DNA of 64,000 nt. Source: Psammoneis japonica. Lineage: Eukaryota. The stretch covers positions 124,001 through 188,000 of the forward strand of contig QPGO01000151.1 of NCBI GenBank assembly GCA_008632985.1. Direction: 5' to 3'. Under the pieces are notes generated by a model. The model made no database searches, was not told where the DNA came from, and saw nothing but the letters and a program-made list of their open reading frames with translations. Position numbers and translations under genes: made by a program. Below, one piece after another: positions 9,639 to 54,912 of this stretch (its first letter is position 1; each line of letters starts with the position of its first letter).

Positions 9639-10029
9639 AGAGTGATCGATATCGAGTACCGATCTATATCGGTTGAGGTGATTGTCGCTCTGGCCGGCAG
9701 TTGGCTTTCATTTTTTATACTGTTGATTAGTGCGTTCTTTCGTTCGCTCTCTTCTACTGCTGATTTGCGTGGGCTAGTTTTGGCCCTACTAGCTACTGTA
9801 GAGTCGTAGATGCATTGTAGTACGCATCTTGATAATATCTTATCGACCCGTCTATCAGGAAGCGGCGAATCGACGGTCATGGCTTCAACCTGTAGAAATC
9901 GACATGTGTAGCCGGTTTGCATGCTGCCCTGCGCAACGGCACGTCGATTGTTGCTCGTCAACACTTGAAGTGATTTCCCAGCATTTCGGTTTCGTACTAG
10001 ACCCAATGATGAAAAATGCGGGGAAAAAG

Positions 10030-13000: not shown

Positions 13001-14028
13001 CTCTGATGGCACCAAAGGAACAGTCATGGCACAGTGGACGTGACCCATGACAACATGCTCAATCTGGTTGTTGGCAGCTTGAAGGTTGCCCTCAAGCTCA
13101 ATGCTTTGACACACTCCTGCCACTTTCGCCAATGTGTTGCCATGGTGGTGGGATTGCTGAATTGACTGTTTCATTTCCCAGGGTGCCATCCAATCCCATG
13201 AACTTGTTGACATCCTTGTCCTCATGTCACAAATGAGCACAATGTCCTGCATCTGAGAAATTGAGCATCTCATTGAATGCATCTGTGCAGTCCTCCACAG
13301 ATTCCACGGACTCTGCAAACCAGTGGATGTGGGCACAACAAACAATCTCTCTGATGATGTTGTCTGGCAGGTCATGCAATGAAGCCTTGATCCACTCATC
13401 AATTGTCCCCAGGTGCAGGTCAAAGAACTCCATTCTGGGACACATCCACACCATGACTTTTTCATGTGCACAGTTTTGTGATGAAAGAATTCAGCCAATT
13501 TCCAGGTTGGACCCCGCCAGCACATGCTGATGCAGTTCGTGACTCTGCGTTCTTGTTGCCACAAGACAACTCAGATGAACTTGGGTGGACATCACCACAA
13601 CTGGAGAACACAGTCCAGTTGGTCCATGACTTGGCATGCAAGCCACGTTGCAGCACACTGACCACAACATTGCACTCCAACAAGGAGAAGCATTTTCCAG
13701 AGCTGCTGCACATTTGTGAGACAATGCAAGTGCCAAAGTGTCATTTCCAAGATGTCCCACAATGGGCGCACTTTCACTGGTTTTGCTGGCAACAGAGACA
13801 AGTTCACACACCTCCACCCACAACCATTTGTGTTGGGCAAGAATTTGTTGGAGGAACTCCACTGCACCTGCAGTCTGTGGATGTCATCATGTTGTGCAGT
13901 TGCAGGATGGATGTGCATTCTAGGATGCCACACGTCTGTTGTGCAAAAATTCAGAAGTGAGATTTTGCAACTGGCATCTTGTTTTTTGCAGACAAAACAT
14001 GGGTCACACAGAATGGGAGATTTGCTTG
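10030..14028. repeat. Degenerate TE/pseudogene block depleted of TpA and CpG
   Basis: Same composition as 1-7750, with fragmented ORFs. Contains an ~85 bp diverged direct repeat at ~11243-11323 and ~11479-11567. Confidence 0.55.
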
Positions 14029-14039
14029 CAGGAAGTCGC

Positions 14040-14205
14040 TGCAGCAACTCACTCGCACGCTTCTGACATGTGGCATTAATTTTGGATGTCAGATTAACGC
14101 AGCCGTTTGAGAGAGGCTCGCCAGCGTTCGCCAACGCTTGGGGCTCCCCTCTCTTTGGTCTACTCACTTCTTTGTTTTGACATCAGTTTTCAGCTTGAGC
14201 TTGCA
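14040..14205 (+). repeat. Gypsy 5' LTR (166 bp)
   Basis: Direct repeat of 19323-19475/27624-27635. Termini are TGCA...TGCA, probably from TGTA...TACA. Confidence 0.92.
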
Positions 14206-15655: not shown

Positions 15656-15924
15656 CCCAATGAGCTTGAAGAGCTGTCGTCCGAGTGTGTCGCTCCTGAT
15701 TTTTACATGTTTGATGATTGTGCTGATTGTGTTGATGATTGTTGTGCACATGCTGCTGATTTATTTGATGATGATGATTTTGGAAATTGTGCTGTGAATG
15801 ACGAAGACGATGTGGGACTTGAGTGCACTGCACCAACCCCAAAAACAAACCAATTGAACCATTGAATGTGGTCCCAACAACCTCATTCGCGGCGTGATTC
15901 ATTCAAGATAAGGAAAGCAAGCGC

Positions 15925-18900
15925 GTGATGCGGGCATTGCTTGATTCCGGTGGAACCCATTCAATGATTCATGCTCGGGTGTTGCCGGTTGGAGCGGTTC
16001 CAGCATTGGAAGAGACAGGACCGATTCGTGCGAAGTTTGGGACAATGGCAGGAGAATTCGAATCAACTCGTTGTGTTCGATTGCAGGACTTGGTGCTCCC
16101 TGAATTCGACAAGACCAAACATGTTGATGGCATGCATGCGCATGTGTTTGACTCACCCTGCCAGTGTGATGTGATCCTTGGACAGGACTTCTTGGCGAGA
16201 GCGGGTGTCACATTGGATTTCGAACATGGAATTGTCAAGTGGCTCGGTTCAAGCATTGCAATGAAGCCGAAGAATCAGCGGACTGGCATCCAGCAATGGC
16301 TCGATGATTTAACTGATGAACTGGCCAATGATGATGACGTGTGGGACAGTCACATCCTCAATGCAAAGCATGAGGAGACGTCCCCGTCTGAAGTGGCTTC
16401 AGCTCAGAAGCATCTCACTGCCGAACAGCAAGAGAAATTGCGTCTCGTGTTGGAGAAACACACTGCTCTTTTTGATGGCACCCTTGGCAAGCACACTGGC
16501 GAAAAAGTTCACCTTGACATTGACCCTGACGCCGTTCCGTGCCATTCTCGAGCGCGTGCAGTGCCGCACAATGATCTCGAGACTTTTGAGCGAGAATTAG
16601 ATCACTCAGTGGCTCTTGGCGTTCTTGAAGAAGCCGGAACTTCGGAATGGGCTGCAGGTGCCTTTATTCGGCCGAACAAAGATGGTCGAGTGCGGTGGCT
16701 CAGCGATTTTCGGGAACTCAACAAAGCCCTCAAGCGCAAGGTTTGTCCCTTGCCGATCATTCAAGATGTGTTGCAAAAGAGAGCCAGGTGCAAATTTCTT
16801 ACAAAGTTGGATCTCTCAATGATGCATCATGCGTTTGAACTGGACGACAATTCCAAAGATCTGACGACAATCGTGACACCCTTTGGAAAGCATCGATGCT
16901 GCCGTCCAGCAATGGGTTTGAAGCCGGCTCCAGATGTTGCGCAATGCTTGATTGAGAAAACTGCACATGACTTGGACGTTGACGCACACATTGATGATCT
17001 CGCTCAATTTGATGACAATTTTGACACTCACCTTGCTCGTCTCAACAAACTCCTGCAACGTTTGGAAGAAGCTGGATTTAAAGTGAACCCTTTGAAATGT
17101 GAATGGTGTGTGCAGGAAACGGATTTCCTTGGGCATTGGCTAACTCTGACTGGAATTCGTCCGTGGAAGAAGAAAGTGGAAGCCATTCTGCGAATGCAAC
17201 CTCCGGAAAATGTCAAGCAGCTTTGTTCGTTTCTTGGTGCTGTGACATGCTGTCGCAACATGTGGCCTCGGTGTTCTCACTTGTTGAAACCTTTGACAGA
17301 TCTCACAGGCAAAGGCTCGTGGACGTGGACAGCAGATTGTCAGGCAGTGTTCGAAGAGATGAAAGCAGCACTAGCGGCCGAGACGTTGATGGCGCACCCG
17401 CATCACAACAAACCCTTCCACATCTGTGCCGATGCCAGTGATCACCAAATGGGCGCAGTGATTGTACAAGATGGAAAACCTGTTGCACATTGGTCTCAAA
17501 AGCTGAGCGCGGCGCAACAAAACTGCTCGACGATCGAAAAAGATTTCTTGGCCATTGTCATGTGCTTCCGCGAATTCCAAACAATGCTCCTTGGCGGCGA
17601 CTTGCATGCATTCACCGACCACAAGAACCTTGCCTTTCGCACCTTAAGTTCACAACGTGTGCTCCATTGGCGCCTCTTTCTGGAAGACTTTGCCCCTCAA
17701 TTCCATTGTGTCGAAGGCCGCTTGAATGTCTTGGCTGATTGTTTTTCTCGTTTACCTCGCATGGATCCTCCCTCTGAAGGGAAGAGTTTGGCTCTGGGTG
17801 AAGGAACTGTTGTTGATTTTGCTCCGCTCGATTCGAAGTTGGTGCCGAGTGAGGAACCATCCGAAGTCGAGGATTTCCGCGATGAGGACTTGGAGCTCAG
17901 CGCATGCCGATTCAAGTGTTGTCGCAACATTGAAAATGAAGGCCACTCACACTTCTTCTCTTTCTTCGTTGATGAGCCGGAGCTGTTTGATTCCTTTTTG
18001 AATTGCCCCATGATGCAGGAGATGCAAAATCCAATGACGTTACAACGGATTCAAGAGCACCAGTTCGAGGACCAACAATTGAACCAGATGCGCATTGCTC
18101 ACCCTGATCGTTTCCTTGTGGAACATGTGAACAATCGACCGCTTGTGTGTCATCGTGTGCGACCAAATGATCCTCCAGGACAGTGGAAAATCTGTTTGCC
18201 GACTGCGCTTGTGCCCGACATCTTACGGTGGCATCATCTCGTTCTTGGCCATGCCGGAAGCCAGCGCATGCGTGAAACAATCCAGGCTCATTGTCATCAC
18301 CCTGGGTTGCATTACATGTGTGATGAATGTTCTTGTGCTGATTGCCAACGTGACAAAACTTTGGGTCCTGGCTGTGGAGAACTGCCCAAACGAGAAGATC
18401 AATTGACTCCCTGGTCGGAAGTGGCGGTTGACCTCATTGGCCCGTGGAAAATCAAAGTGCCGAATGGAGAGATTGAGTTTCGCGCGTTGACCTGCATTGA
18501 TCCTGTCTCTGATCTTGTTGAACTGGTGAGGATTGAGAACAAAACTGCTCGACATGTTGCCAACCAATTCGAAAACTGCTGGCTTGCACGCTGTCCCAGA
18601 CCGAATCGATGCATCCACGACAACGGCGGCGAGTTCACCGGGTGTGAGTTTCAGATGCCATTGCAGCGAGCCGGAATTGATGATGCACCGACCACTTTGT
18701 ACAACCCTCAAGCCAACACCATTTGTGAACAAATGCACCAGACTGTCGGCAATGTGTTGCGCATGCTCATTGCTTCTGATCCACCTCAAAACCTTCAGGA
18801 TGCAGCTGGCCTCGTGGACGATGCTTTGGCAACTGCAATGCATGCAACCCGTTGTGCTGTTTCCCGTTCCTTGCAGATTTCACCAGGTGCTGTGGTGTTT

Positions 18901-19362
18901 GGATGTGACATGATCTTGGACATCCCAGCACTGGCGGATTTGTTGACGATTCAAGGCCATCGCCAGATGCTGATCAACGACAACTTGCGAAAAGCCAATG
19001 CAAAGAGAAGATCCTGCGATTGTCAAGTGGGCGATCAAGTTCTAATCAAGCACATTGAGCCATCCAGACTCAAGCCTCGTGCTCATGGTCCTTGTCCTGT
19101 TGTTCAAGTGCATGTAAATGGCACACTCTCGGTTCGTCGAGCTCCTCATGTGGTTGAGCGCCTCAACATTCGGCGCCTGATTCCTTTTTCGCGGTTGATC
19201 AGGGGGTTTTCTTCCCAACACCTGGGTTTCCTCCTGTTGTTGTCTTTGCTTTTGGTTTTTGGTCCTTGGTTTTTGGCCCTTTGCATGATCCTCCAGTTCT
19301 TTCGGATCATGGAAGGGAAGAGTGCAGCAACTCACTCGCACGCTTCTGACACACAGCATTGA
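15925..19362 (+). pseudogene. pol: Gypsy pol (protease, RT, RNase H, integrase); frame open but conserved Tyr residues destroyed
   Basis: ALLDSG protease; DFRELNK; RT HIDD in place of YIDD; RH ICADASDHQMG; integrase VDLIGPW and IHDNGGEF. Only 2 Tyr in 1145 aa. The true C-terminus probably lies near 19190. Confidence 0.92.
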
Positions 19363-19475
19363 TTTTGGACATTGGATCAACGCAGCCGTTTGAGAGAGGC
19401 TCGCCAGCGTTCGCCAACGCTTGGGCTCCCCTCTCTTCGGTCTACTCACTTCTTTGTTTTGACATCAGTTTTCAG

Positions 19476-19753
19476 TGACAGGATTTGAACAGGATTTGGG
19501 TGCGTGCGAAGCATCGCGCGCTGTTTAGTTTGCCGCGCACAGTTTTTGTGTGCTTTAGTTCCGCGTGTTCACGCGCGATGTAGTTTGCTTTCGAGCCACA
19601 AGGCTCACAAGAATGACAACAGTGGCCCGATTGTGCCGACTTACACGTCTTTCGGCTCCTGCAACGGTCTCTGAGCGGAGACTTGTCTGCCATTTAGACA
19701 GCAGTGAGGAGTTGTTGTTTTGAATTCTTGCCATTTGCCTTCAATTTCTGTCA
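19476..19753 (+). repeat. Copia 5' LTR
   Basis: Direct repeat of 27342-27618 with terminal inverted hexamers. Confidence 0.93.
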
Positions 19754-22700
19754 GATTGACAGTCTTGCTCATTGTCAACCCATTGAGCAACCGCCATCAT
19801 CGTCGTTGATTTACCAACGACGCCACCTCAATCCTGCGTGGACCTCCACGCACATTCTACATGCACCGGCAAGTCTGCGCGCATTCAATGCCAGGGCATC
19901 GGCAGGAGGTTAACGGTCAAGAACCCCACACATTCAAGGATCTTAGTCGCTGAAGACATGCGCACACACACATGTCTTCACGGCCAAGAACCTTTACCCA
20001 CTCTTCGGACTGCAGTTTTGCTGCCACTCTACAAGCACACCGAGTCCATTGCACCTGATCTACCCCGGACCACTGGTGCCCCACAGTTCTGCCAGGTCCA
20101 CGAGGACGACTGTGAGAGCAAGCAGCCGTGATTACAGCCTACGGTGGGGCGAGGGTGCTTTCCCGCGTTTGTTCATTCGTCCACAGCGCCTGACGCCTGT
20201 GTCAACTGGCCAGCCTGATTGGGAAATCCAACCGACATAAAATGAGAACGGTTCGGGGGTCTTGTCCACCTCTAGTCAGCTTACCTGCAGGGGTTTACAA
20301 CCCGCTACTCCGCTCATAAGCAACCCAAAGCGCCACCAGCTGCGGGTTCGGACGTGCCGGCACAACTCTACGGACCGGATGGGAAGTTTAGCACTTGACA
20401 ACGAACGGGACAGCAAAGCCCGGCGACTTCTGATTTTAAGATAGTTCAAGATTTCAAGTCAAGTCCATTTCAAGTCAAGTCTATTCTCACCCAAGTTTCG
20501 AGTCTACCTTCGCTTCCCAACCAGAATTGATTGTCCTGACACCACTTTTGTCTACCATGGTTCTCACTCGTCAGCAACAAACCGATGGTTTCGAGCACGT
20601 TGTTGGAACCGTGCTTGCCCAAGGTGCTGGGAGTCCTCTTCGTTTGGCTTTGGCCCAAGACGGCACGGACTCGCATCAGGAACTATTCACGTTCATGCCG
20701 TCCCAAATCGACTCGCTTGAGTGCGACAACGGCACCAATGTGATCCCTTTGCCCCGTGGTTATAAGAACATGTTAGCAGCACTGGTTGGTCTGTAAATTG
20801 TCAAAGCACACAAAGGTCTTGACGTTGCCAACGACTCCTCTTTGTTCACGCATGACGAGTTCCTTGCCTGCTGCCTCAGCCCCGACCACATGTCTTCTGT
20901 GTCCATCGGCAGCTCACCCCTTGCACCTCCGCATGTCACCAACCCGACCAAGGCACGCGACCCGGTGCGGGACTTCAAGCGAGGCATCAAGCGTGATCCC
21001 ACCGCTTTCACGGCTCTCAAATCCGACAAGCAGTGGCACACTTGGCACACCTCACTTGTGGCACAAGCCCGTGCCCAAGACGTCGAGTGCATTCTAGACT
21101 CGTCACACAAACCGACCAGCCCCGAAGACAAACTGCTCTTTGCTGAACAGCAAAAGTGCATGTTCGCCGTCTTCGAACGCATCCTTCTCACCGACAAGGG
21201 CAAGGCTCTCATTCGCGAAAATGTGGGGTCTTCTGACGCACAGACCGTCTGCCGCGCCTTGTCTGAGTGCGCGCTTGCCTCCACCCGCGCATCTGTCGAG
21301 TCCTCCACCCTGCTCACGTGCCTCACCACCGCACGTCTTGGTGATGGCACTTAGAAAGGTCCGACCCACGGGTTCATCCTTCATTGGCAAGATCAGTTGC
21401 GCAAGTGCGAGGCACTCATCCCGGCCAGTGACCACTTCTCTGAAGGACAGAAGCGCGTCATGCTCGAGAATGCCGTGCACCCTGTCAAGGAACTCCGTGC
21501 TGTCAAGAACCAAGCTGATCAGCATCGTACGCAGAGTGGCAAGAGCCTCACATGCGATCAATGCTGTGGCTTGCTCCTCTCCGCGGCAGCTCAGCACGAC
21601 AGCACGTTTCAACCCAAGACGACACCTCGAGCTCCCCGACGCGCCACACACGCACACGACGTCTGCTCCGAGGAACCGTCCGACGATGTGTTCTACGACA
21701 TTGACAGCGACATTGACGTCCTTCAGGCCAATGCTGCCTGCACCCGCGGTCCCAGCCTCACCGGTGACCAGTGGAGACATCTCCCTCCCGACCACCAATG
21801 GCTCTGGGATTCGTTGCCCGATTCCTCCAAGGCGATCATCCTTGAGCATTCTCGTCCGCCTCCCTGCAACCCGCGAGCCAGCAACTGCCATGAGTCTGTT
21901 ACGGCCAACCTTCACGACCAACGCCTTGGGAGTGACGGTGATGTCAACTTGTCCAACACGACTCCTGCTGACTCTGGTGACTCCGCTCCACATGTGGACG
22001 CCACTTCGGACAATCCCATCCTGGCGCACCTCACCAAGCGCAAGCCACTGCCACCCGGTGATCTGCAACGTCTGTTGTCTCCTAACCAAGCCCCCAATGC
22101 CAGTCGACCGGGGCCATCCACCGCTTCCTCCACCCCGCCAGCTTCTGCAGATGCCACAGAACTTAACGGCCGCACTTGCCGCCGTGTTGACAACCACAAT
22201 GTCATTTGCTCTGCCTCTGCTCATCGCTCCACACGCACTGGCACTCTAGTCAATCGTGGGGCCAACGGCGGCATTGCTGGCGACGACTTTCGCGTCATTG
22301 CACACACCTCTCGCCAAGTCGACGTTCAGGGCATTGACGATCATCAATTGGTGGACATCCCCATTGTCACCGCTGGTGCCGTCATTGAGACCCAGCGTGG
22401 TCCCGTCATCGCCATCCTCCATCAGTGCGCATGCACGGGCAAGGGCAAGACCATCCATTCCTGCAGCCAGCTCGAATGGCACAAACAGGATGTCAACGAT
22501 CGCTCTGTCAAGGTGCCCAACGGCTTGCAACGCATTGCCACTCCTGATGGCCATGTCATCCCCATTGACATCAAGGCTGGCCTGCCTCATGTTGCCATGC
22601 GACCTTACACTGATGCCGAATGGGACACCCTGCCCCATGTCATCCTCACCGGTGATGAAACATGGGACCCTTTTGTCCTCGATCACTCTGTCACTGACGA

Positions 22701-25142
22701 CGACCAGTGGCACGACGCGATCTCTGACCTGCAGGACGATCCCACTGCCAACCCATTTGACGAATGCGGCAACTGCCGTCATCGTGTCGTTGTCAACGAG
22801 ACCATCATGTCCGCTTCCTTGTCTGCCGATCACGCGTCCGCCCTCGATGATCACCTCACTCCGAACGACGACGTGTTCTACGAGTGTCATCTGCATGCGA
22901 TTGACCCCAAGGGCGATGACGTTCCACCTCCGGAGCGCACTGTGCAGCCCAAGGACCCCCCCTTCGAGTCTCTTCGGCCTTGCTTTGGCTTCCTGCCTGC
23001 CGATGCGGTCCGTCATGCTTTTGACTGCACCACGCAGTGCGCCCGCATGCCCGCCGGCACACACCTTCGCAAGGCCTGCAAATCACCCAACCCCGCCCTT
23101 AATGTGCACCGCCGCAACGAGCCCATCGCCACTGACACCGTTTGTGCCGACACCCCGGCCGTCGACTCTGGTTGCACCAGCGCCCAACTGTTTGTTGGCA
23201 CCGAGTCTACCGTCACTGACGTCTGCGGCACTGAGACGGACAAAGAGTTTGTCAACACACTCGAGGATCAGATCCGTGAACGTGGTGCCCCATCCAAACT
23301 CATTGGCGACCGTGCTCAAGTTGAGATCAGCAACAAAGTGCTCGGGATCCTGCGCGCCCTCTTCATCTCCAGCTGGCAAAGTGAGCCTCACCAGCAACAC
23401 CAAAACTTTGCCGAGCATCGACACCAGACCGTGAAGCACATGGCGAACACTGTCATGGATCGTTTTGGTTCGCCCGCCCACACATGGCTGCTGGCGCTCA
23501 TGTGCATGTGCTTCACACTCAACCATGCAGCATCCCCACGTCTCCACTGGCGCACGCCCCTCGAGACTCTCACTGGCTCCACCCCGGACATCAGCCCATT
23601 GCTTCGCTTTCACTGGTGGGAACCCGCGCACTTCCACCTCGATGACTCCGATTGGCCACCCGAATCCCGTGAGTTGCGTGGACGCTTCGTTGGCATTGCT
23701 GAGCACGTCGGCCACCAGATGACCTTCAAGATTCCATCTGACGAGACTCAGAAGATCCTCTGCCGGTCCAACGTCCGCTCCGCTGCCCCCGATCCTGCCG
23801 TTCGAAACCTGTGTCTTGATCCTCCTGATGGGGAGCCACCTGAACCCATCATCAAATCTCGCCATGACGACAACCCCGTCGATTCTCCTGATGGGGAGAT
23901 CAGGACACCCAAGATGCCAGTTTTCGATCCGCAAGACATCATTGGACGCACCTTCCTCATGCAGCCACAAGAGGACGGACAACGCCACAGAGCTCGCATC
24001 GTCAAGGCCATCGAAGACCACGAATGGAAAGTGAACGGCAATCCCGAGCTCACTGGGTTCGTCTGCTCTGTCAACAATGACGAATGCGAGGAAGTCCTTG
24101 CCCACAATGACGTCATGAATCACATTGAGCAAGAAGACGAAGACACCACTGTTTGGAAATTTCGATGCATCGTGTCACACGAAGGACCTCTGAAGCCTCA
24201 CGACCCAACCTGGAAAGGCTCCAGCTACAACATCATGCTTGAATGGGAAAGTGGGGAGGTCACGTCCGAGCCTCTTGCCATCATCGCCAAGGACGACCCC
24301 GTCACCTGTGCCATCTGTGCACAAGAGAACGGACTCCTCGACACGGATGGCTGGAAGCGGTTCCGCACCATCACGAGGCGCCAAAAGAAGCCATTTCGCA
24401 TGGCCAACCAAGCCAAGCTTCGCTCCTTCCGCACTGCACCTCGCTGCAAGTGCGGGTGCGAAGTTCCCCGGAACTGCAAACACGCCATGTCACTGGACGA
24501 ACGCAACGGCAACCACAAGTGGGGAGATGCAACTAATCTCGAGATGGACCAACTCGACGAATGCGAAGTCTTCTATGACTGCGGGCCCTTCAACTCTTCC
24601 ACTCCTCCTGCGGGACACAAGAAGATCCGAGTGCACCTGGTGTGCGACGTGAAACACGACGGTCGCCACAAGGCACGACTCGCAGCCGACGGGCACCTCA
24701 CGGACGCACCTGTCGACAGTGTCTGCTCCGGAGCAGTCTCCCTCCGTGGCCTTCGGCTGATGATTTTCCTGGCCGAACTCAACGAGTTGGAGACATGGGC
24801 CACCGACATTGGCAATGCCTGCCTTGAAGCCACCACCAAGGAGAAGCTTTGCATTGCAGCTGGACCCGAATTTGGCAAACTCGAAGGACACATCCTTGTC
24901 ATCCACAAGGCACTGTGTGGACTGCGCAGCTCCGGTCTCCGCTGGCACAAGCGCTTCGCCGACTGCCTGCGAGCTGAAGGCTTCTTCCCCTGCCGCGCCG
25001 AACCCGACATTTGGGTGCGCAGGAACGGCGACCACTGTGAACGCATTGCCGTTTATGTGGATGACCTCGCCATTGCCATGAAGGACCCTCAATCTTTGGT
25101 CGACACTCTCACGGAAAAGTGCAAGTTCAAGCTCAAGGGTGC

Positions 25143-25725
25143 CTGGGTTCAAATCATCAACGGTCCTCGCACCATGACAGGATTTAAACAAGATTGACCA
25201 ACTCGATTAAATCCGACCCATCAACCTGAAAAATTGCGATACCCAGGAATCGAACCTAGGTCCTCTTACAACCGGTTACCGACTAAACCATTTGCCGCTT
25301 TCTTCAAACTGACAGGCTTTTTGTACACAGTCACACATGTTTCAGCCAGAGAGTGACACACACCTTTAATTCTTCTTAGAATTCTGTCACTCCCCACAGG
25401 TCACGAAGCTGTCTGACGTCACGAAGCTGTCTGACATCACGAAGCTGTCTGACGTTCCTTTCTTTGGACAATGATGCTTCTCACAGCTCCCCTTCTACCT
25501 GGGCCACATTTTTCTGCACACGCCATGACCTCCCCGGCGAGCTGACAATTGGGCGGCCATTCCGGCCTCGGCATCCCTAATGAGAGCACTGTGTGCATCG
25601 TCGGTCTGTCTCACTGCAGCTTCTCCTCAGTTTTAGAGTCATCTTGAAGGAGCACACACACCTGGGTTCAAATCATCAACAGCCCTCGCACCATGACAGG
25701 ATTTAAACAAGATTGACCAACTCGA
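25143..25725 (-). mobile_element. TRIM-like non-autonomous LTR element fragment (LTR end - PBS - ~300 bp interior - PPT - full LTR - PBS)
   Basis: On the minus strand: GGGGAG PPT (25395-25390), 215 bp LTR 25389-25175 with TGACAG...CTGTCA ends, and PBS TGGTGCGAGG after both LTR ends (from 25174 and 25693). The interior is non-coding with a 3x18 bp tandem repeat at 25401-25454. Confidence 0.75.
25235..25298 (-). ncRNA. tRNA-derived Pol III-type cassette lacking a normal anticodon arm, inside the TRIM LTR
   Basis: Minus strand reads GCGGCAAATGGTTTAGTCGGTAACCGGTTGTAAGAGGACCTAGGTTCGATTCCTGGGTATCGCA followed by ATTTTT. It has an A-box-like TGGTTTAGTCGG, a B-box GGTTCGATTCC in a T-stem, a partial acceptor stem and an oligo-T terminator. 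Confidence 0.65.
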
Positions 25726-27341
25726 TGAGTGCGAAGTCTTCCATGACTGCGGGCCCTTCAACTCTTCCACTCCTCCTGCGGGACACAAGAAGATCCGAGT
25801 GCACCCAGTGTGCGACGTGAAACACGACGGTCACCACAAGGCACGACTCGCAGCCGACGGGCACCTCACGGACGCACCTGTCGACAGTGTCCACTCCGGA
25901 GCAGTCTCCCTCCGTGGCCTTCGGCTGATGATTTTCCTGGCCGAACTCAACGAGTTGGAGACATGGGCCACCGACATTGGCAATGCCTGCCTTGAAGCCA
26001 CCACCAAGGAGAAGTTTTACATTGCAGCTGGACCCGAATTTGGCAAACTCGAAGGACACATCCTTGTCATCCACAAGGCACTGTGTGGACTGCGCAGCTC
26101 CGGTCTCCGCTGGCACGAGCGCTTCGCCGACTGCCTGCGAGCTGAAGGCTTCTTCCCCTGCCGCGCCGAGCCCGACATTTGGATGCGCAGGAACGGCAAC
26201 CACTGTGAGTGCATTGCCGTTTGTGTGGATGACCTCGCCATTGCCATTGAGGACCCTCAATCTTTCATCGACACTCTCACGGAAAAGCACAAGTTCAAGC
26301 TCAAGGGTGCGGGACCCATTGAGTTCCATCTGGGTTGCGACTTCTCCCGGGACCCCGACGGAACCTTGTGCCTGTCTCCGCGCAAGCACATCGAGCGCAT
26401 GGTCGACAGCTGCACCCGACTGTTTGGGGAGAAACCTGCCACCAACGCCCTGTCACCTCTAGAGAAGGGTGACCACCCCGAACTGGACACTTCCGAACTG
26501 CTGGGACCCGATGGCATTCACAAGTTCCAGTCTCTTGTTGGTTCACTCCAATGGGCAGTGTCCCTTGGTTGAATTGACATCACCACGGCCGTCATGTCAC
26601 TCTCTAGCTTCCGAGCTGCGCCCCGTCAAGGCCACTTGGATCGTGCCAAATGCGTCTGTGGGTGCCTCTCCAAGATGCAACATGGTGCTCTCCGCGTTCG
26701 CATGGAAGAGCCCGACTGTTCGGATCTCCCTGCTCCGGCCCATGAATGGATGCATTCCGTGTGTGGTGAAGCAGAAGAGATGATCCCGAAGGACGCTCCA
26801 CCGCCCCTTGGCAAGTTCGTCACTGCCACCCACTACGTTGATGCAAACTTGCACCATTGCATGCTCACCGGACGCTCTGTCATGGGAATGCTCCACTTCC
26901 TCAACAAATTCCCGGCTGATTGGTTCTCTAAGAAACAAGCCACCGTGGAGACTGCGACCTGCGGGTCTGAATTTGTTGCCGCAAGGACTTGTGTTGAGCA
27001 GATTATCGACCTGCGCATCACCCTGCGCTGCCTTGGTGTCCCGATCTGTGATGTTAGTTACATGTTCGGTGACAACAAGTCGGTTGTAGACAGTGCCACC
27101 ATCCCGCACTCCAAGTTACACAAGCGACACACCGCACTGTCGTTCCACCGTGTGCGTGAGGCAATTGCCTCTGGCCACCTTGAGCTCCACTTCATCGAAG
27201 GCTCCCGCAACCCTGCTGACATTCTCAGCAAGCATTGGGGTCACTCCCAAATCTGGGACCTTCTCCGCCCCCTCATGTTCTGGAACTTCATTCCATCCGA
27301 AGTCGAATCTGTTTCTGTGGCTCCTCAAACAAACTGGGGAG

Positions 27342-27618
27342 TGACAGGATTTGAACAGGATTTGGGTGCGCACGAAGTGTCGCGCGCTGTTCAGTTTACC
27401 GTGCACAGTTTTGTGTGCTTTGGTTCCGCGCGTTCACGCGCGATGCAGTTTGCTTTCGAGCCACAAGGCTCACAAGAACAACGACAGCAGCCCGATTGTA
27501 CCGACTTACACGTCTTTCGGCTCCTGTAACGGTCTCTGAGCGGAGACTTATCTGCTATTTAGACAGCAGTAAGGAGTTATTGTTTTGAATTCTTGCCATT
27601 TGCCTTCAATTTCTGTCA
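27342..27618 (+). repeat. Copia 3' LTR
   Basis: Direct repeat of 19476-19753. Its right half retains ancestral TpA. Confidence 0.93.
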
Positions 27619-28664
27619 TTCAGCTTGAGCTTGCAGTCGCCGCAAAAGCGTGGAAAGTCTGTCGCGGATACTTTCCACTTTATTAATAATATTCATATAT
27701 ATCAAAATATATGAAATTATTAAAATGTTATGAATAACTTATATTTTCCTTTTTATATTGCCCTTACAACCTAAGTAATTTTGGTTCGCAACCGTTGAGT
27801 GATAATGTTTTATATATAGTGATAAGGTGTTCATTAAAAGAGGGTCATTATGACCGTTTTTGATCAATGACTTTCCACGATAGAATTACATCGTGGCTAT
27901 CGTGGAAAGTGAAGACTTTCCACGATACTATCGTGGAAAGTCATATGACTTTCCACGATGACTTTCCACCTTTCGAGGCTTATGTAAATGCCCGAAAAAT
28001 AGGGTCATATGACAAGATTTTGATCTCATCACAACGCCTTGATGCTTATAAATCTTGCCATTTTCCAACATGATTTTGGAACAACTAGTTCAAGAGCCGG
28101 GCTCGGTCTCGTCAGGAGGCCTTCAATGCACGCATCAAGAACTTCGCATGCCTTTCGGAGACGTTTCGCCACGGCATCAAGAAGCATCGACGATGCTTCG
28201 AGGCCGTGTGCGTGATTGCGCAATACCAGTTGGAATGTGGCTCACCCCTCTTTGACATTTAAAAGTGAGTGACGCCACATCACGAAGTTTCTAGTCATTA
28301 ACATTTAACAAATGACTTTCCACGATCATTTGTCATTAATGACTTTCCACGATATTTAACGACTTTCCACGATAGCATCGTGGAAAGTAAAGACTTTCCA
28401 CGATAGAATTGAATCGTGGAATACTTTCCACGATGCGACTACCTTCCGTTGAATTATGACTGCATTAAATAAACGTTATACACAGTAATTAAATGTGTTT
28501 TAATTAATGGGGCAGTGAGTATTTTTTCAACGGACAGTGAGAGGGCAATATATGGATTCAGGTGTCCTGTTCACGTAATCCCATAGTATATTCTATACTG
28601 AGAAGTGCGAGCGTGTCCACTACGACACTCAACGTACTTTCCACGCTTTTGCGGCGACTTCCAG

Positions 28665-30300
28665 GCCAATGGTTGGTGCATTGTCATGCCTTGCCCAAGC
28701 AGCAAGGAACCAACCCAAGGCATGGTTTGTGCTTGGTTGCATCACCGCGCCACCTCAGGCAGTGACTGATCAGTCCTTCACCAGCAAGCCGCCTTTGGCT
28801 GGACCATTGCAATCCAAGGGTCTCCACTGGTTGAGATTGTGCTGGCCCCATTTGTGGGTGCTTGCCCTCTTCATGTTGAGCTGAAGCCTGTGGAGCTCTG
28901 TTCCTTGTGAGGTTCATTTGCTGGGCAATCAAATTTTGCAGCCTTTCAAGTTGCGCTGGTGCAGACAACTGGTGTGACAACAAGTCTTTGGCAAGGCTCC
29001 ACTGCAACTTTCAGCAATTCATCCTGCCAAAGGCAATTGAGTCACCCAATCTGGAGCAAGACTGCCACCTTCGACACCGTGGCACTGACATCCTTTCACC
29101 TGATTGGGGTGTCATCAACAAGATTCACCAGACCACCATTGACATTGCCTTGTCATTGGATGCCTCCTCCTCCAGCCAAGCAGCTGCAACAGAATGGGTC
29201 AAAGGCCGCCAAGATTGGATGGCTCCAGTCTCATCCCTTCCTCTCAATGCCAAGGCAAACATCAGAGCTGAAAAGCCAGCTGGGAGATGCCAGCAACAGC
29301 ACTCTTCTGACACCTCTGTGGTTCTTCCATTGCCTCATTGCCAGGTGCCTCTCAATGTTGTGGATGGAACAGTTGATGCTGGATTGAAGGCAATGGTGAG
29401 GTGCACAACTGCAGCTCCTGCCTTCCTGGAACACATTAGAGAATGCAACAGATGAGACAACTCTGTCACTGACAAATCAGATTGGAAGCTTCATGCCTCT
29501 CTGGTGTGCAGATTTTCTTGCAAACACGTGTCCACTGTCAAACTCATTCACAAACTCCTTCCTGCAAACAAGATTGTGAGCCAACACAATCCAGTGCCTC
29601 CTCATGCATCGCTGTTTTTGTTGTGCGAGTCTCCATTTGAAGATCAGGATCACATTCTCCAATGCCTGGACAGCGAGCATTGGTGATGCACTTTTCCGCA
29701 GGGCCTCCACAAACAATGCAACAAAATTGACACTGAGCCACCATTGTGTGATCTTCTGCTGCGTTCCATCAAAGCTTGGTTTCAGGACACCATGGAATGC
29801 AAATCTGACATCACTTCTGTGCTCCAACCTCTGTGTTGTGTGCAAACTGACATTGGTTGGCAACAACTTTTCAATGACCGTCCCTCATTGTTGTGGAACA
29901 CTCTTGTCAAGAAATGCATCTTTGTGAACCAGGCCTTCTTGCAAAATCCCAGAGAGAGATTGGTCCTCTGCCAGTGTGGGTGGCGCAAATTGGCGCTCAC
30001 ATTTGGAACTCCCGGTGAGAATTGTGGAAAGCTCACAACAAAGCAATGCATGGGCATGGCAAAAATGCCAGGAAATCACCCCAACGACAATGTGCCGAGG
30101 CTGAGCTCACAGCCATTTGCAACAAACGACAAGAACACCTGGCCAAAGGCAGCAACAAACTGTTGGACTCCATCAAGGAACATCTGTCATTTGTTGCCTC
30201 CCAGATTCTGAATTGGATTGCTGTGGTGAAACCATGTCTAAAGGAGAGCCAGGGCTGGCATTGCTGGCAAAGGAGTGACAGCAGCACTTGAAATTTGGGT
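28665..30300 (+). mobile_element. Degenerate non-LTR retrotransposon 3' region (RNase H-like and C-terminal Cys/His domains)
   Basis: Frame fragments PSSC*AEACGAL (cf. SSYRAEAYG), WCDNKSL, LSPDW, WVKGRQD (cf. WVKGHQD), EDQDHILQC, QTDIGWQQLF and WKAHNKAMHG. Confidence 0.7.
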
Positions 30301-33300
30301 TTGTTTTTTTTTGTTCATGATCTCATCTTTTATGTCCACACACTTCCTTTTTAAAATTTTGTGGATCCTTGACCATCTTTAACACCAACACTGTCATCAT
30401 CAAAATCTTAATTGTCAACTTCCTCCATGAGTGTCTTCGCTGTCCAGCGGGCATCAATTGCACACAGGATTTCACAACTCTGTGGGTGTTGTTGCTTTGT
30501 GACAAGGGAATCTTCCCCATTGCAGCCATCAAATGTTTGTCAACACAGAAATGTTCGGTCAGCATTGTCACATCTCCAAAGATTTCTGGCTTGCAATTTG
30601 AGTGCTTCTTGATCAGCTTCTTCATGTGCTCCTTGGTGCAAGTGGAGTTTGAGTTGCAAACCCCCCTTAAAATCAAGTGAGAATTGGCCTTGTTTTGGTC
30701 TTTCACTGCAATCAACAAACACGGTTCATCCTCCAACAGTTTTGTAAGAAACACAGTGGTCTGACAGCAGTTGGCCTTGGCCCTGTCCTGACTCTCCTGA
30801 GTGCCACTTTTGCAGTGAAAGCAACGATTCCAAATCCAGCACTTTGTTTTTGTCACAATTCCAACCACAGTTCTCCAATTGAAAATTTGTGGGAATGGAA
30901 GAGCTCAGTGCCTTTTATTTTGCTGACAAGGCATCCCTCAAAAACCATCTGACCATGGTGGGCTGTTTGTCTTGACACCTGGCATTGACAGTGGGTTCAT
31001 CACCTTCTCACAGAAGTCATGCACTGCTGTCCTGGGTTTTCAAATGAATGAGGATTTGGATGAATTTGGCTGCAATCTCCTTCATTGCCCTTCTGTTCCA
31101 CTGATGGCAAACTGTCAACAACCCAACCAGTTGGATCAAACCTTCAATGCAATCTTGGGTTTAAGACTTGCTCTTGTGGATTTTGATTTCTGTCAAACAA
31201 AAAAGATGGCGGACCCAAAATTGTTGATTGCAAAAGAACATGGCATTGAGTTGGATGACAACAAACCATTCAAAGGCGTGTCTTCTCCTCTGCCACAAGC
31301 TGCGCTGTCACCCAGCAATTCTTCCTGCCAATGAGTCCAAGTTAAATGCACTGGCCTCCATTGCATTTGTGATGCCCTTGACCTCCGCTGCATCTTCCAC
31401 CATGGTGGGGACAACCAGTTTTTGCAGGGTTGACAAGAGTCCCTGTCACAAGGTCGACAAAAATGCCCTCTTCTCTGACACCCTCCTCCATTGCAGTGTC
31501 TCCAGTGAGGCTGGCAATCATGTGGTTGATGGCAATGCACCAGGTCTGCCCCAAAACCTTTCTTCTTCCTTGCTTGCTTGTTTTGTGCGTCTTCAAGCTT
31601 GGCAGCCTCTGGGTGATTGGGTTGGCCTCCTTCTTCTCCTTCCTTGGTGAGATCAATCACTTCAGTTGCTTCCTTCTTTGCCCTCTGTGTGGGTCATGTT
31701 TCACTCTCATCATTCCCACCGTCCTTTCCCTTGTCCAATCTCTCTTTGACAGAAAGTGAGAAAGAACTCGGTGCTTGCCTGAGGGTGACTTGGAGTGATC
31801 AAGTCCATGCACAAACAGGAGAGAGCAAGCCAAAGCCAGCAACACCTTGTGCTGAAGTGGGTTCCAGACATTGTGAGAGATGATTCTAAGCCAGTCTCAG
31901 AATCAAAGCCAGGATGGAAAGTGGAGGATTCCGACTGGTTGACAAAACTCTACGGAGCTGCAAATGATTTCCATCACAAACTGACAAGAAGACATGACAT
32001 CATCAGTCAGGAGGTTCCAACATCAAAAGGGAATGTGGAGTCCCAGACACTCTTTGCCCCCGTCCAAGCGCACAAAACTCGTCTCCTCGGCCGTGGTCCT
32101 GGTGACCTCGCCTTGGGCACCATGTCGTCTTCTATCCACTGCGGCCACAGCAAATCCTCCGCACTCATTGTCACGATCTAATAAAAAACAGAACAACAAT
32201 TGTTTCATCTGATTGTGTAGAAAGTTGTGAGCTCATCAACTGACCCCTCAAGCATTCTTCATTTTCTTCGATTGGCTTCTTGTCATTGGCCCAGCCCGCC
32301 TCTTGTCGCGCCCGACCCTCCAAGCAACAGATCTCCTTGAGTGCGGCTTGCTTGATCGCCTGGCGTTCCTCCAATGCAAGAAGTAACTCGTCATCCTTTA
32401 CGAAGTCAGTCAAGGCCTGTTGAAAGTTAATCTTGGTTGCCAAACAACGCAAATTTAGAGTGCTCCAAGCATCATGATCCGCGCAGCTTTTGCACAACAC
32501 AAGAAGCACCATCGTTGTACATGATGACAACAAATCCAGCAACTGGCCGGTTTCGTCCTGTTTCAGTCTCCATCTGCAGCCTGATTTCAACGTGTCGCGC
32601 CAGCTGCTCGTGAGCTTTGGCTGTGAAAGCCTCTGCCGGAGCACCTTCAGAAACTTGCTTCAGTTCGAGTGCGACCACACTTTTGGGAGAACTGAATGTG
32701 ACATCCGTCCGTTTTCCTGTCCCTGGCAATCTGTCCTCTTGAGTTGTTTGGGCAACGCCAGCCAAAATGTCGTGGGCTTCTGTGATGACATGTGCCTGGA
32801 ACTGAAGCTCCAGAATGTGATTCTGAGAGTCTGAGAAAGCCCATGCCATCAATCTGCCATGTTGTTCTCGGAAATGGAAGTGACAAAATCAACCAAAATG
32901 TCTTCCCCGTCACTGCAAAGGTCTTCTGTGGAAGTGCATGACACCAATTTTTCGAGGGAAGCTTTCAAAGTTTTCAGGATGGGTTCGAGGAGATGTTTGC
33001 AGGCAATGTCCCGAGGTGAGATGGAATGTTGTGATTTCTGCGTCTGCCGCATCCGTGGTGACCGATGCCACACCCACGTGAACCAATGAAGTCAGGCAGT
33101 CACCAATGTCGATGGCAGGTTGCAGGAGATCCTCCAAACTCAAATCTTAATTGAGTCTGCATCCTTGGAGCTGGTCCCCGGCGACAAGCTTGTTCACTGC
33201 ATGCCGGAGGTTTCTGGCGGTGCACAAAACATCAAATGTGACTGAAGAGACAGGTTCATTGACATGCGACATGTCCTTTGGAACTCGACCAAACTTTGGG

Positions 33301-54200: not shown

Positions 54201-54369
54201 CATCAGCTGCAAAACAGTCCTCTCCCTTGATGAATGAACATCAAGACAGGTGGGTCCTGACACCAGCTCTTCATGAGCTCCGTGAGCCATCATGCTCTGG
54301 CGAGTCGACGCATGCACACACACTGATGACACTGCATCACACGATGGCACAGCTGAGATTGATGTGCTC

Positions 54370-54745
54370 TGTGAAAATTTCAATGTCGTGTCAACAGGAA
54401 TCATTCGAAAATGTCGTGTGGGTCACAATTGATGTTTTGCATGAGTGAAAACACAAAATCGTGCAGAAATGCACACAAAGTCATGCGAGAGAGTGATTGG
54501 AGCTGACAACTTTTCGGGAACTGAATTGAAATGCTGTCTGATTGATGGTGTTGGCCTTCACTGTGTGAATCAAAATGCCATCAATCAGACGGCATTTCAA
54601 TTGATTTCCCGAGAAGTTGACATTCACACATGGATGGATGGACAGACTGATGACAATTGTTTTCAGTGCTCTCCTGCACAATTTTCACGTGATGACTCTC
54701 AGGACCCGAATGATTCCTGTTGCTGACAAGATGTTTCTATTTTGT
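54370..54745. repeat. Imperfect foldback (core arms ~54507-54552 and ~54574-54619)
   Basis: The ~46 bp core arms are reverse complements with a few mismatches. Outer match CAACAGGAATCATTCG / CGAATGATTCCTGTTG. Confidence 0.75.
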
Positions 54746-54912
54746 TGCAGGCACTCTGCAACAGAGAGCAGTTGTTCTCTTTGTGCTTGGTTCAGATTGC
54801 AATGGGAATCTTTCGAAAATGACCCGTGACGTAAAAAGCACAAAACAGCTGTGGACACCTGCAGAATCTACATGTTTTTGTGCTGAAACTGTTATGTTCA
54901 CACAATTTGTGC

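What the first reader, a model, noticed from the sequence alone, without database searches (positions are those of the whole stretch)
19476..27618. Copia LTR pair records independent post-integration TpA conversion
LTRs are identical at insertion (established). Hand alignment of the two ~278 bp LTRs gives about 10 TA-versus-TG/CA sites, 4 reciprocal TG-versus-CA sites (GCGTGCGAAGCATC vs GCGCACGAAGTGTC; GAATGAC vs GAACAAC; CAGTGGC vs CAGCAGC), 3 CG-versus-TG/CA sites, 1 indel and no transversions. Reciprocal sites are best explained by one ancestral palindromic dinucleotide (TA, or CG) hit on opposite strands. This argues against RNA editing or RT error, and means LTR-divergence dating would overestimate age in this genome.
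Basis: partly seen in the sequence, partly recalled or inferred. Interest (0 to 1): 0.88.

Follow-up and report, generated by a model that had tools for sequence, protein, structure and literature searches.

The report
TpA-erasing mutation of diatom retrotransposons
Two nested retrotransposons in a diatom genome show that, after they inserted, the host DNA lost the two-letter step TA (turned into TG or CA) almost everywhere inside mobile-element DNA but not in neighbouring genes, a genome-defence-like mutation process so far reported only in one unrelated alga.

Summary
The two 278/277-bp Copia LTRs (19476-19753, 27342-27618; 5-bp TSD TTCAG) differ at 21 positions plus 1 indel. All 21 are transitions inside YpR dinucleotides: 10 TA vs TG/CA sites, 4 reciprocal TG vs CA sites and 3 CG vs TG/CA sites. 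None of the 133 non-YpR positions differs (Fisher p=6e-7).

The Copia sits inside the 3' LTR of a Gypsy element (14040-27635, TSD GTCGC). That element's own LTR pair repeats the pattern (11 of 11 substitutions in YpR).

The direction is TA>TG/CA. Conserved Tyr codons read Cys or His at 24 of 29 columns (Copia) and 9 of 9 (Gypsy), and no Cys or His column reads Tyr. Mobile-element tracts across the window have TpA o/e 0.0-0.1 and TG/CA near 2, with boundaries about 100 bp wide. Host genes keep TpA at 0.6-0.8.

CpG decay is a second, slower contributor, and at least one reciprocal LTR site is CG-derived.

Host genes place the organism among diatoms. The same TpA signature has been shown experimentally only in Bigelowiella natans (2026 preprint), and my searches found no diatom report.

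The parts
19476..19753 (+). Copia 5' LTR (278 bp, TG...CA)
   Evidence: pairs with 27342-27618; keeps 5 TpA
27342..27618 (+). Copia 3' LTR (277 bp)
   Evidence: keeps 9 TpA, mostly in its right half next to TpA-normal flank
19471..19475 (.). Copia target-site duplication TTCAG, left copy (right copy at 27619-27623)
   Evidence: a single TTCAG in the Gypsy 5' LTR at 14189-14193 shows the empty site
19754..27341 (+). Copia internal region. The polyprotein is readable at 20557-25140 and 25697-27298. The RVT_2 domain is present twice.
   Evidence: TpA o/e 0.0-0.2 in coding parts and 0.33-0.67 in the 5' leader 19640-20839
24542..25142 (+). First copy of a 601-bp internal duplication of the RT region (second copy at 25710-26310, 96% identical)
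   Evidence: 3 reciprocal TG/CA sites; the one at conserved-Tyr column 1110 has a shown TA ancestor
25143..25696 (+). Insert between the two RT copies. It contains tRNA-3'-end-like pieces (one ending CACCA), an LTR-start-like 21-mer present twice, and an 18-bp tandem repeat.
   Evidence: no tRNA and no Rfam family
14040..14205 (+). Gypsy 5' LTR (166 bp)
19323..19475 (+). Gypsy 3' LTR, left part, cut by the Copia insertion. Its last 12 bp are at 27624-27635.
   Evidence: 11 of 11 substitutions against the 5' LTR are in YpR
14035..14039 (.). Gypsy target-site duplication GTCGC, left copy (right copy at 27636-27640)
15898..19359 (+). Gypsy pol ORF (protease, RVT_1, RNase H, integrase)
   Evidence: Tyr 0.17%, Cys 3.9%, His 5.1%; 9 of 9 conserved Tyr columns read His or Cys
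1..7700 (.). Old converted tract, depleted in both TpA and CpG
   Evidence: in 1-7000, TA 22 observed vs 504 expected, CG 52 vs 373, TG 770 vs 422, CA 849 vs 445
10000..14039 (.). Old converted tract
   Evidence: TA 18 vs 273, CG 58 vs 222; boundary at 9900-10000
28650..39000 (.). Converted tracts (CpG loss is only partial in 32001-35000)
   Evidence: TpA falls from 11 per 100 bp to 0 between 28500 and 28700
44001..55000 (.). Old converted tract with a diverged 1.5-kb tandem repeat (45326-46828 / 46829-48275)
   Evidence: TA 42 vs 787; the repeat pair has 49 reciprocal CA/TG sites among 300 YpR pairs
55740..57719 (+). Host gene (serine palmitoyltransferase, two exons) in a TpA-normal tract. 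It serves as an internal control and as the taxonomic marker.
   Evidence: TpA o/e 0.5-0.8
42046..43416 (+). Host gene (CitMHS transporter) in a TpA-normal tract

Best explanation
In this diatom genome, mobile-element DNA undergoes a DNA-level, tract-targeted mutation process after integration. The process turns the dinucleotide TpA into TpG or CpA, that is A:T>G:C at the A of TpA on either strand. A slower CpG>TpG/CpA decay of the usual methyl-cytosine kind acts on the same tracts.

The Copia LTR pair, identical when the element inserted, has since diverged only through these two processes, hit independently in each LTR. Where both LTRs were hit on opposite strands, the site now reads TG in one and CA in the other.

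Shown here: the context specificity, the direction, the post-integration timing, the use of both strands, the confinement to mobile-element tracts with sharp edges, and the faster rate of TpA loss compared with CpG loss.

Inferred, at about 45% likelihood: the chemistry is enzymatic deamination of adenine to hypoxanthine in double-stranded or transiently single-stranded DNA of silenced chromatin, acting as a RIP-like genome defence. This is the mechanism proposed for Bigelowiella natans.
For: LTR pairs. In the Copia pair, 21 of 21 substitutions fall in YpR and 0 of 133 non-YpR positions differ. In the Gypsy pair, 11 of 11 fall in YpR and 0 of 83 non-YpR positions differ. Both elements have intact TSDs, and the nesting order is clear.

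Direction. In the Copia pol, aligned to 40 full-length homologues (of the 78 homologues of 1700 aa or more among the 120 listed), 29 columns have conserved Tyr. The query reads Cys at 18, His at 6, other residues at 3, and Tyr at 2. Of 71 departures at 493 conserved columns, 32 are single TA>TG/CA changes, 9 are CG>TG/CA, 6 are other single transitions and 24 are not single transitions. No conserved Cys column (0 of 3) and no conserved His column (0 of 16) reads Tyr. In the Gypsy pol, aligned to 31 homologues (those of 900-1700 aa among the 150 returned), 9 of 9 conserved Tyr columns read His (5) or Cys (4). Copia Tyr content is 0.47%, against a homologue median of 3.91% and minimum of 2.86%.

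Window scale. Tracts totalling roughly 45 kb have TpA o/e 0.00-0.2 and TG+CA 1.4-2.0. Four host-gene tracts have TpA o/e of roughly 0.4-0.8 and CpG 0.7-1.3. Edges are about 100 bp wide.

Internal control. A 215-bp tandem repeat in a host tract (60910-61338) has 10 transitions and 11 transversions, keeps 10 shared TpA and has no reciprocal site.

Independence arithmetic, done by hand from the table. The expected number of TA sites converted in both LTRs is 7x3/2 = 10.5, so about 5 should be reciprocal; up to 4 are observed. The same calculation for CG gives 2x1/18 = 0.11.

Family copies. Contigs of public runs X1-X4 (one sample, probably the assembly's own) show 312 transition places against 34 transversion places. 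A loose-end consensus reads TA where LTR3 reads TG (19557) and CG where LTR5 reads TG (19566).

Precedent. In mutation-accumulation lines of Bigelowiella natans, all 230 A>G/T>C mutations among the 231 in the two viral regions fall on TpA (bioRxiv 10.64898/2026.01.13.699255; Results and Discussion read).
Against: Not all of the LTR divergence is TpA conversion. Three sites are CG-type. Reciprocal site 19505 has C in 99% of family contig depth, with G unchanged, so its ancestor was CG. A double CG hit is unexpected under independence (0.06 reciprocal sites expected).

At 19684-85 the family reads CA in 99.9% of depth while the LTRs read TG and TA. TA at integration is still the most parsimonious state there, but the family consensus is not TA.

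Conversion is uneven. Tyr codons survive at 2 of 29, whereas about a quarter to a half of the inferred TpA sites survive in the LTRs, and the 5' leader keeps TpA o/e 0.33-0.67. Part of the interior change may therefore have been inherited from an already converted source copy, or the rates differ along the element.

The six rightmost TA sites are all converted in LTR5 and kept in LTR3 (hand calculation, p about 0.03). This could be an edge effect, but it could also be a gene-conversion tract.

At Copia Tyr codons, A>G on the sense strand outnumbers T>C 18 to 6. The Gypsy ratio is 4 to 5. This asymmetry is unexplained.

No enzyme, base modification or real-time mutation was observed here. No whole genome was available. 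The sequencing runs are not independent of the assembly.
Confidence: 0.85

Rival explanations
1. The signature is real and DNA-level, but it is a passive by-product of a base modification placed on TpA in silenced chromatin, not the work of a dedicated deaminase. Candidates are a thymine derivative such as 5-hydroxymethyluracil that mispairs with G, or a modified adenine.
For: Both routes give TA>CA/TG on either strand and would follow chromatin-domain edges, as seen. TG and CA show no strand runs along the tracts (runs-test |z| below 1.7 in all 11 tracts), so hits are independent site by site. That fits a diffuse chemical lesion as well as it fits an enzyme. It is recalled, not tested here, that dinoflagellate hydroxymethyluracil is enriched at TpA.
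Against: I know of no evidence for such a modification in diatoms, and none can be read from the sequence. The surviving TpA have a marked context bias: a 5' T at 116 of 228 and a 3' A at 94 of 228, against 5' A at only 20 and 3' T at only 22. This shows sequence selectivity, which either route could have.
Confidence: 0.2
2. The LTR differences were imported by ectopic gene conversion from other, already converted copies of this high-copy family, and were not made in place.
For: The family is abundant: 10,797 contig pieces were laid in X1, and summed depth is 369,037 in an LTR bin against 1,914 in the flank. The copies differ from one another mainly at YpR sites, so imported tracts would look the same. 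The six rightmost TA sites all differ in the same direction, as a single conversion tract would.
Against: Derived states alternate between the two LTRs in the left half. The Gypsy pair shows the same pattern. The four reciprocal sites need hits in both LTRs. This rival also still requires the same DNA-level TpA process in the donor copies, so it changes only where the hits occurred.
Confidence: 0.08
3. RNA-level A-to-I hyper-editing (ADAR-like) of the element's transcripts, fixed by reverse transcription.
For: The context (a U or T 5' of the edited A) matches ADAR preference, as noted in the Bigelowiella preprint Discussion. Copia Tyr codons show an 18:6 excess of sense-strand A>G. The interior is more converted than the LTRs.
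Against: Both LTRs are copied from one template and would be identical, yet they differ at 21 positions. Each LTR carries both A>G and T>C changes. The Gypsy Tyr codons show 5 His and 4 Cys. Tracts without any recognisable retroelement protein are converted too. ADARs are known only in animals (established knowledge).
Confidence: 0.03
4. Fungal-type RIP or another C>T process, in which TA is the derived state (CpA/TpG>TpA).
For: Diatoms carry DNMT4 enzymes related to fungal RID (PMC9998398, passages read). The ten TA vs TG/CA sites alone carry no direction.
Against: Mobile-element tracts are nearly free of TpA rather than enriched in it. At 24 of 29 and 9 of 9 columns conserved Tyr has become Cys or His, and no conserved Cys or His column has become Tyr. 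The long ORFs remain free of TAA and TAG stops in several frames.
Confidence: 0.01
5. Sequencing or assembly artefact, for example modification-dependent base-calling errors in methylated repeats.
For: The effect is confined to repeat tracts, which are likely to be methylated. The only runs found come from one sample, probably the assembly's own.
Against: Logan's k-mer contigs of run X1, assembled separately from the raw reads, hold 53% of the stretch's sampled 31-mers. They show the same transition-dominated variation among copies. Conversion is nearly complete over many kilobases and strand choice at each site is random. The same signature was seen in Illumina mutation-accumulation lines of another alga.
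Confidence: 0.02

Closest known systems
TpA hypermutation of integrated viral DNA in the chlorarachniophyte Bigelowiella natans (Mettrop et al., bioRxiv 10.64898/2026.01.13.699255)
   Same: Both show almost exclusively A>G/T>C changes, only at TpA, on either strand. Both are confined to foreign or mobile DNA while the rest of the genome is spared. Both leave a long-term TpA depletion with CpA+TpG gain that includes reverse-transcriptase and transposase genes.
   Different: The host here is a diatom (Stramenopila) and not a rhizarian. The targets are LTR retrotransposons and unidentifiable repeat tracts, not giant-virus or virophage inserts. Depletion is close to saturation (o/e 0.0-0.1, against 0.45 for their viral region). 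The same tracts later also lose CpG, which the sections I read do not mention. Here the timing comes from LTR pairs, not from mutation-accumulation lines, so no real-time rate is known.
Repeat-induced point mutation (RIP) of ascomycete fungi
   Same: Both are DNA-level, context-specific transition mutagenesis that inactivates mobile elements in place. Both hit either strand, destroy reading frames and make LTR dating unreliable.
   Different: The chemistry and the outcome are opposite. RIP is C>T, mostly at CpA, and it creates TpA and lowers GC. Here A>G at TpA removes TpA and raises GC. No strand runs are seen. Dependence on duplication or on a sexual phase is untested.
CpG decay of methylated transposons by 5-methylcytosine deamination
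   Same: CG>TG/CA on either strand accounts for 3 single LTR sites, at least 1 reciprocal LTR site, 9 of 71 Copia protein departures, and the CpG o/e of 0.05-0.25 in the old tracts.
   Different: It cannot explain the loss of TpA. It is also clearly slower here: the Copia and Gypsy elements keep 87% and 86% of expected CpG but only 21% and 11% of expected TpA.
ADAR hyper-editing of repeat RNA in animals, and its fossil record in retro-copies
   Same: Both give A>G with a 5' U/T preference in repetitive sequence.
   Different: ADAR acts on RNA, affects a single strand and would be identical in both LTRs. Those expectations are not met here.

Membership tests
Bigelowiella-type TpA hypermutation of foreign DNA | Mutations are almost exclusively A>G/T>C and fall on TpA | tested here: met
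   Polarised departures in Copia: 32 TA>TG/CA against 6 other single transitions. In Gypsy: 12 against 4. In the LTR pairs, 32 of 32 substitutions are in YpR. A CpG component is also present.
Bigelowiella-type TpA hypermutation of foreign DNA | Confined to integrated foreign or mobile DNA, with host sequence spared | tested here: met
   Host-gene tracts have TpA o/e of roughly 0.4-0.8, against 0.0-0.2 in mobile-element tracts. Edges are about 100 bp wide. A host-tract repeat is unaffected.
Bigelowiella-type TpA hypermutation of foreign DNA | Long-term TpA depletion coupled to CpA+TpG enrichment | tested here: met
   For example, in 44001-55000: TA 42 vs 787 expected, TG 1302 vs 685, CA 1231 vs 683.
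Bigelowiella-type TpA hypermutation of foreign DNA | Ongoing de novo mutation at a rate about 1000-fold above background | not testable with these tools
   This needs mutation-accumulation lines or resequencing. The only result here is 0 substitutions at 216 non-YpR positions against 32 at 212 YpR positions.
Fungal RIP | C>T at CpA (or another CpN), creating TpA and lowering GC | tested here: not met
   The direction is the opposite.
Fungal RIP | Triggered by sequence duplication | tested here: inconclusive
   The family is high-copy. A 215-bp tandem repeat in host DNA is untouched. No single-copy foreign DNA was available to test.
ADAR-type RNA hyper-editing fixed by retrotransposition | Changes on the transcribed strand only, and identical in both LTRs | tested here: not met
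   The LTRs differ at 21 positions, and each LTR carries both A>G and T>C changes.
Ty1/Copia LTR retrotransposon | Copia-type reverse transcriptase (Pfam RVT_2), TG...CA LTRs and a 5-bp target duplication | tested here: met
   RVT_2 at E=6e-17 and 5e-20. LTRs and TSD. The polyprotein is collinear with homologues of 1,850-1,900 aa. An integrase domain was not detected by Pfam in the converted ORF, and the integrase-before-RT order was not tested.
Ty3/Gypsy LTR retrotransposon (host of the Copia insertion) | Protease, RVT_1, RNase H and integrase in that order; LTRs with a target duplication | tested here: met
   One search gives the domain order 2-89, 250-405, 468-589, 759-928.

The most novel reading that the evidence does not exclude
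Diatoms possess an enzymatic, chromatin-domain-targeted DNA adenine-editing defence. It would be an A-specific mirror image of fungal RIP that strips TpA from newly integrated mobile DNA far faster than CpG decays. It would share its origin with the process seen in Bigelowiella, which would make DNA editing of invaders an old trait of the SAR supergroup.
Probability: 0.4. Interest if true: 0.92.

Novelty: new member of a known kind. Interest (0 to 1): 0.8.

Why it matters
Apart from fungal RIP and animal APOBEC/ADAR systems, there is almost no evidence that eukaryotes mutate invading DNA on purpose. A TpA-specific A:T>G:C process was first shown in 2026 in a single rhizarian alga.

Finding the same signature at near-saturation in the retrotransposons of a diatom, with LTR pairs that time it to after integration, has three consequences:
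- It widens the phenomenon to a second major lineage of marine phytoplankton.
- It gives a simple genome-wide assay (LTR pairs, Tyr>Cys/His counts, TpA o/e maps) for finding which species have the process, and hence for finding the enzyme by comparative genomics.
- It warns that LTR-divergence ages, Kimura repeat landscapes and ORF-based gene calls are distorted in such genomes. ORF calls are affected because loss of TAA and TAG creates long false ORFs in several frames.

Tried and rejected
- Whole-genome access was not possible: no genome is held for this window.
- A metagenome scan with the 21-nt LTR start gave 6 loci that share only that 21-mer, a tRNA-T-arm-like word, and no family copies.
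- Read laying prints only 40 of 349 variant rows, so family states are known for only a few LTR sites. Sites 19614 and most single TA sites remain unpolarised by family data.
- The runs X1-X4 are one sample and one study, probably the source of the assembly, so they are not independent support.
- The runs test for strand clustering of TG and CA found none.
- tblastn of Copia and Gypsy proteins found no further copies in the old tracts. Pfam found nothing in their long ORFs. What the old tracts once were is unknown.
- ARAGORN and Rfam gave nothing for the tRNA-like insert.
- Earlier-findings look-ups returned nothing that bears on this.
- RIP-type direction, RNA editing, GC-biased gene conversion (not context-specific, and opposite to the CpG loss) and artefact were considered and rejected, as set out under the rival explanations.

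Full report
**What is there.** The interval 19476-27618 is a Copia-type LTR retrotransposon. Its LTRs of 278 and 277 bp run from TG to CA. A purine tract (GGGGAG) precedes the 3' LTR, and the 5-bp target duplication TTCAG flanks both ends. The interior encodes a polyprotein collinear with homologues of 1,850-1,900 aa, and the Copia-type RVT_2 domain is detected twice. It is detected twice because a 601-bp piece of the RT region is duplicated (24542-25142 and 25710-26310, 96% identical) around a 550-bp insert.

The element is itself nested. It sits 12 bp before the end of the 3' LTR of a Gypsy element spanning 14040-27635. That element's LTRs are 14040-14205 and 19323-19475 plus 27624-27635, and its target duplication is GTCGC. 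The intact Gypsy 5' LTR shows the Copia 'empty site' with a single TTCAG. Both elements are therefore single, clean integration events, and the Gypsy is the older of the two.

**The observation.** There are 21 substituted positions and one T indel, with no transversions. The sites comprise 10 TA vs TG/CA, 4 reciprocal TG vs CA and 3 CG vs TG/CA.
- All 21 substitutions lie in the 144 positions that belong to a pyrimidine-purine (YpR) step.
- None lies in the other 133 positions (Fisher p=5.9e-7).
It has 11 substitutions, all in YpR (4 reciprocal sites, 2 TA-type, 1 CG-type), and none in 83 non-YpR positions (p=9.6e-5).

**Direction.** Three lines of evidence show that TA is the ancestral state and TG/CA the product.

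First, the coding sequence. I aligned the Copia pol ORF to 40 full-length homologues, taken from the 78 homologues of 1700 aa or more among the 120 listed.
- 29 columns have Tyr in at least 80% of homologues. The element reads Cys at 18, His at 6, other residues at 3, and Tyr at only 2.
- Of all 71 departures at 493 conserved columns, 32 are single TA>TG/CA changes, 9 are CG>TG/CA, 6 are other single transitions and 24 are not single transitions.
- No conserved Cys or His column has become Tyr.
- The Gypsy pol, aligned to 31 homologues (those of 900-1700 aa among 150 returned), reads His (5) or Cys (4) at 9 of 9 conserved Tyr columns.
- Tyr makes up 0.47% and 0.17% of the two ORFs. Their homologue medians are 3.9% and 3.4%.

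Second, composition.
- About 45 kb of the 64-kb window has TpA observed/expected of 0.00-0.2, with TG and CA raised to 1.4-2.0. For example, 44001-55000 has 42 TpA against 787 expected.
- The four tracts that hold recognisable host genes (an ADH-type dehydrogenase, a CitMHS transporter, serine palmitoyltransferase and a CCT-motif protein) have TpA o/e of roughly 0.4-0.8 and CpG 0.7-1.3.
- The edges are about 100 bp wide.

Third, the reciprocal sites in the internal duplication. The one at conserved-Tyr column 1110 reads TGC in one copy and CAC in the other, so a TA ancestor was hit on opposite strands.

**Post-integration, on DNA, on both strands.** The two LTRs of an element are copied from one template and start identical (established knowledge). 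Here each LTR carries derived changes of both kinds: LTR5 has 5 TA>TG and 2 TA>CA, and LTR3 has 1 TA>TG and 2 TA>CA. This rules out RT error and single-strand RNA editing as the source of the divergence.

- The table has 2 TA kept in both LTRs, 7 lost only in LTR5 and 3 lost only in LTR3.
- About 10.5 sites should then be lost in both, and half of those (about 5) would be reciprocal. Up to 4 are observed.
- The same arithmetic for CpG (18 kept, 2 and 1 lost) predicts only 0.06 reciprocal sites.

**What the family copies add.** Public runs X1-X4 hold the stretch. They are one sample, probably the assembly's own, and are kept as Logan contigs. I laid them on 19200-24500 at 80% likeness.
- The family is very abundant: 10,797 contig pieces were laid in X1.
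- The copies differ mainly by transitions (312 places against 34 transversion places).
- Only 40 of 349 variant rows are printed, so few LTR sites can be polarised.
- At 19505, 99% of depth reads C with the following G unchanged, and a loose-end consensus reads GCGCGCG. That reciprocal site is therefore CG-derived and not TA-derived.
- A loose-end consensus reads TA at 19557, so LTR3 was converted there. It reads CG at 19566, so LTR5 decayed there.
- At 19623-24 the family is a mixture.
- At 19684-85 the family reads CA, while the LTRs read TG and TA. All three states of a former TA occur at this site.
- The divergence is therefore a blend of TpA conversion (the majority) and CpG decay. A family 'consensus' is not a safe outgroup, because the other copies are converted too.

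**Further anatomy of the process.**
- TpA loss is much faster than CpG loss. The Copia and Gypsy elements keep 21% and 11% of expected TpA but 87% and 86% of expected CpG. The old tracts have lost both.
- The Gypsy is older than the Copia, yet their LTR distances are the same (7.3% and 7.6%), which points to saturation of the available sites.
- TG and CA are randomly ordered along every tract (runs-test |z| below 1.7), so hits are independent from site to site and are not processive on one strand.
- Surviving TpA are mostly TTA or TAA. The 5' neighbour is T at 116 of 228 and the 3' neighbour is A at 94 of 228. ATA and TAT are rare (20 and 22), whereas host TpA have even neighbours. This indicates selectivity beyond the dinucleotide.
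- A 215-bp tandem repeat inside a host tract has a normal spectrum (10 transitions, 11 transversions, 10 shared TpA). Short local duplication alone does not trigger the process.
- An old 1.5-kb tandem repeat inside a converted tract has 49 reciprocal sites among 300 YpR pairs.
- Conversion is uneven within the Copia. The coding interior has o/e 0.0-0.2, the 5' leader 0.33-0.67 and the LTRs 0.2-0.4.
- The six rightmost TA sites are all kept in LTR3, which abuts unconverted flank, and all lost in LTR5 (hand calculation, p about 0.03). This may be an edge effect or a gene-conversion tract.

**Dating.** The pooled LTR pairs show 0 substitutions at 216 non-YpR positions, which gives a 95% upper bound of 1.4%. 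The naive distances are 7.6% and 7.3%. Standard LTR dating would therefore overestimate divergence at least 5-fold, and it would also stop being clock-like once sites saturate.

**Organism and prior knowledge.** The serine palmitoyltransferase ORF finds its best named relatives in diatoms at about 70-79% identity (Nitzschia inconspicua, Craspedostauros, Attheya and others). The host genes have few introns. The window is therefore from a diatom.

Full-text searches found one paper on such a process: Mettrop et al., bioRxiv 10.64898/2026.01.13.699255. I read its outline, Results and Discussion.
- In Bigelowiella natans mutation-accumulation lines, all 230 A>G/T>C mutations among the 231 in two integrated viral regions fall on TpA.
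- TpA-poor, CpA+TpG-rich clusters include reverse-transcriptase and transposase genes.
- An ADAT2-like DNA adenine deaminase is proposed as the cause.

No search returned a report for diatoms. Passages of Maumus et al. 2009 (PMC2806351) and Hoguin et al. 2023 (PMC9998398) do not mention the process. Subscription journals and the preprint's supplements were not visible to me.

**Verdict.** The finding is best described as a new member of a very recently described kind. It is the Bigelowiella-type TpA conversion, seen here in a diatom, acting on LTR retrotransposons and other repeat tracts nearly to completion, timed to after integration by two nested LTR pairs, and followed by slower CpG decay. 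The chemistry (adenine deamination against a mutagenic base modification) and the targeting signal remain inferred.

Noticed in passing
14040-27635: The Copia element is nested in the 3' LTR of a Gypsy element that has its own intact 5-bp target duplication (GTCGC). Its LTR pair gives a second, independent record of the same YpR-only divergence.
   Followed up: yes
25143-25726: Between the two copies of the duplicated RT segment lies a 550-bp insert. It begins with a tRNA-3'-end-like piece ending in CACCA, joined directly to a 21-mer resembling the LTR start (TGACAGGATTTAAACAAGATT, present twice). It also holds a reverse-complement T-arm-like piece and three 18-bp tandem repeats. It looks like a product of aberrant reverse transcription or template switching. 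ARAGORN and Rfam find nothing.
   Followed up: partly
21098-24174, both strands: Loss of TAA and TAG stops creates overlapping false ORFs of 270-390 codons in several frames and on both strands of the Copia interior. Gene callers would over-predict genes in such tracts.
   Followed up: partly
21397-25197: At conserved Tyr codons of the Copia pol, A>G on the sense strand (Cys, 18) outnumbers T>C (His, 6). The Gypsy pol shows 4 against 5. The asymmetry is unexplained.
   Followed up: partly
mobile-element tracts, window-wide: Surviving TpA are mostly in TTA or TAA contexts, and ATA and TAT are almost gone. This suggests a preference that extends one base beyond TpA.
   Followed up: partly
45326-48275: A 1.5-kb tandem duplication inside a fully converted tract is 72% identical in normal letters but 87-90% identical in purine/pyrimidine letters. 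It has 49 reciprocal CA/TG sites.
   Followed up: partly
27641-28650: An AT-rich, TpA-normal spacer with short palindromes (about 27897-27960 and 28375-28436) lies between the nested elements and the next converted tract. Its nature is unknown.
   Followed up: no
32001-35000 and 14040-27635: Some tracts have lost TpA but kept most of their CpG (o/e 0.6-0.9). This gives a relative time order for the tracts: TpA goes first and CpG later.
   Followed up: partly
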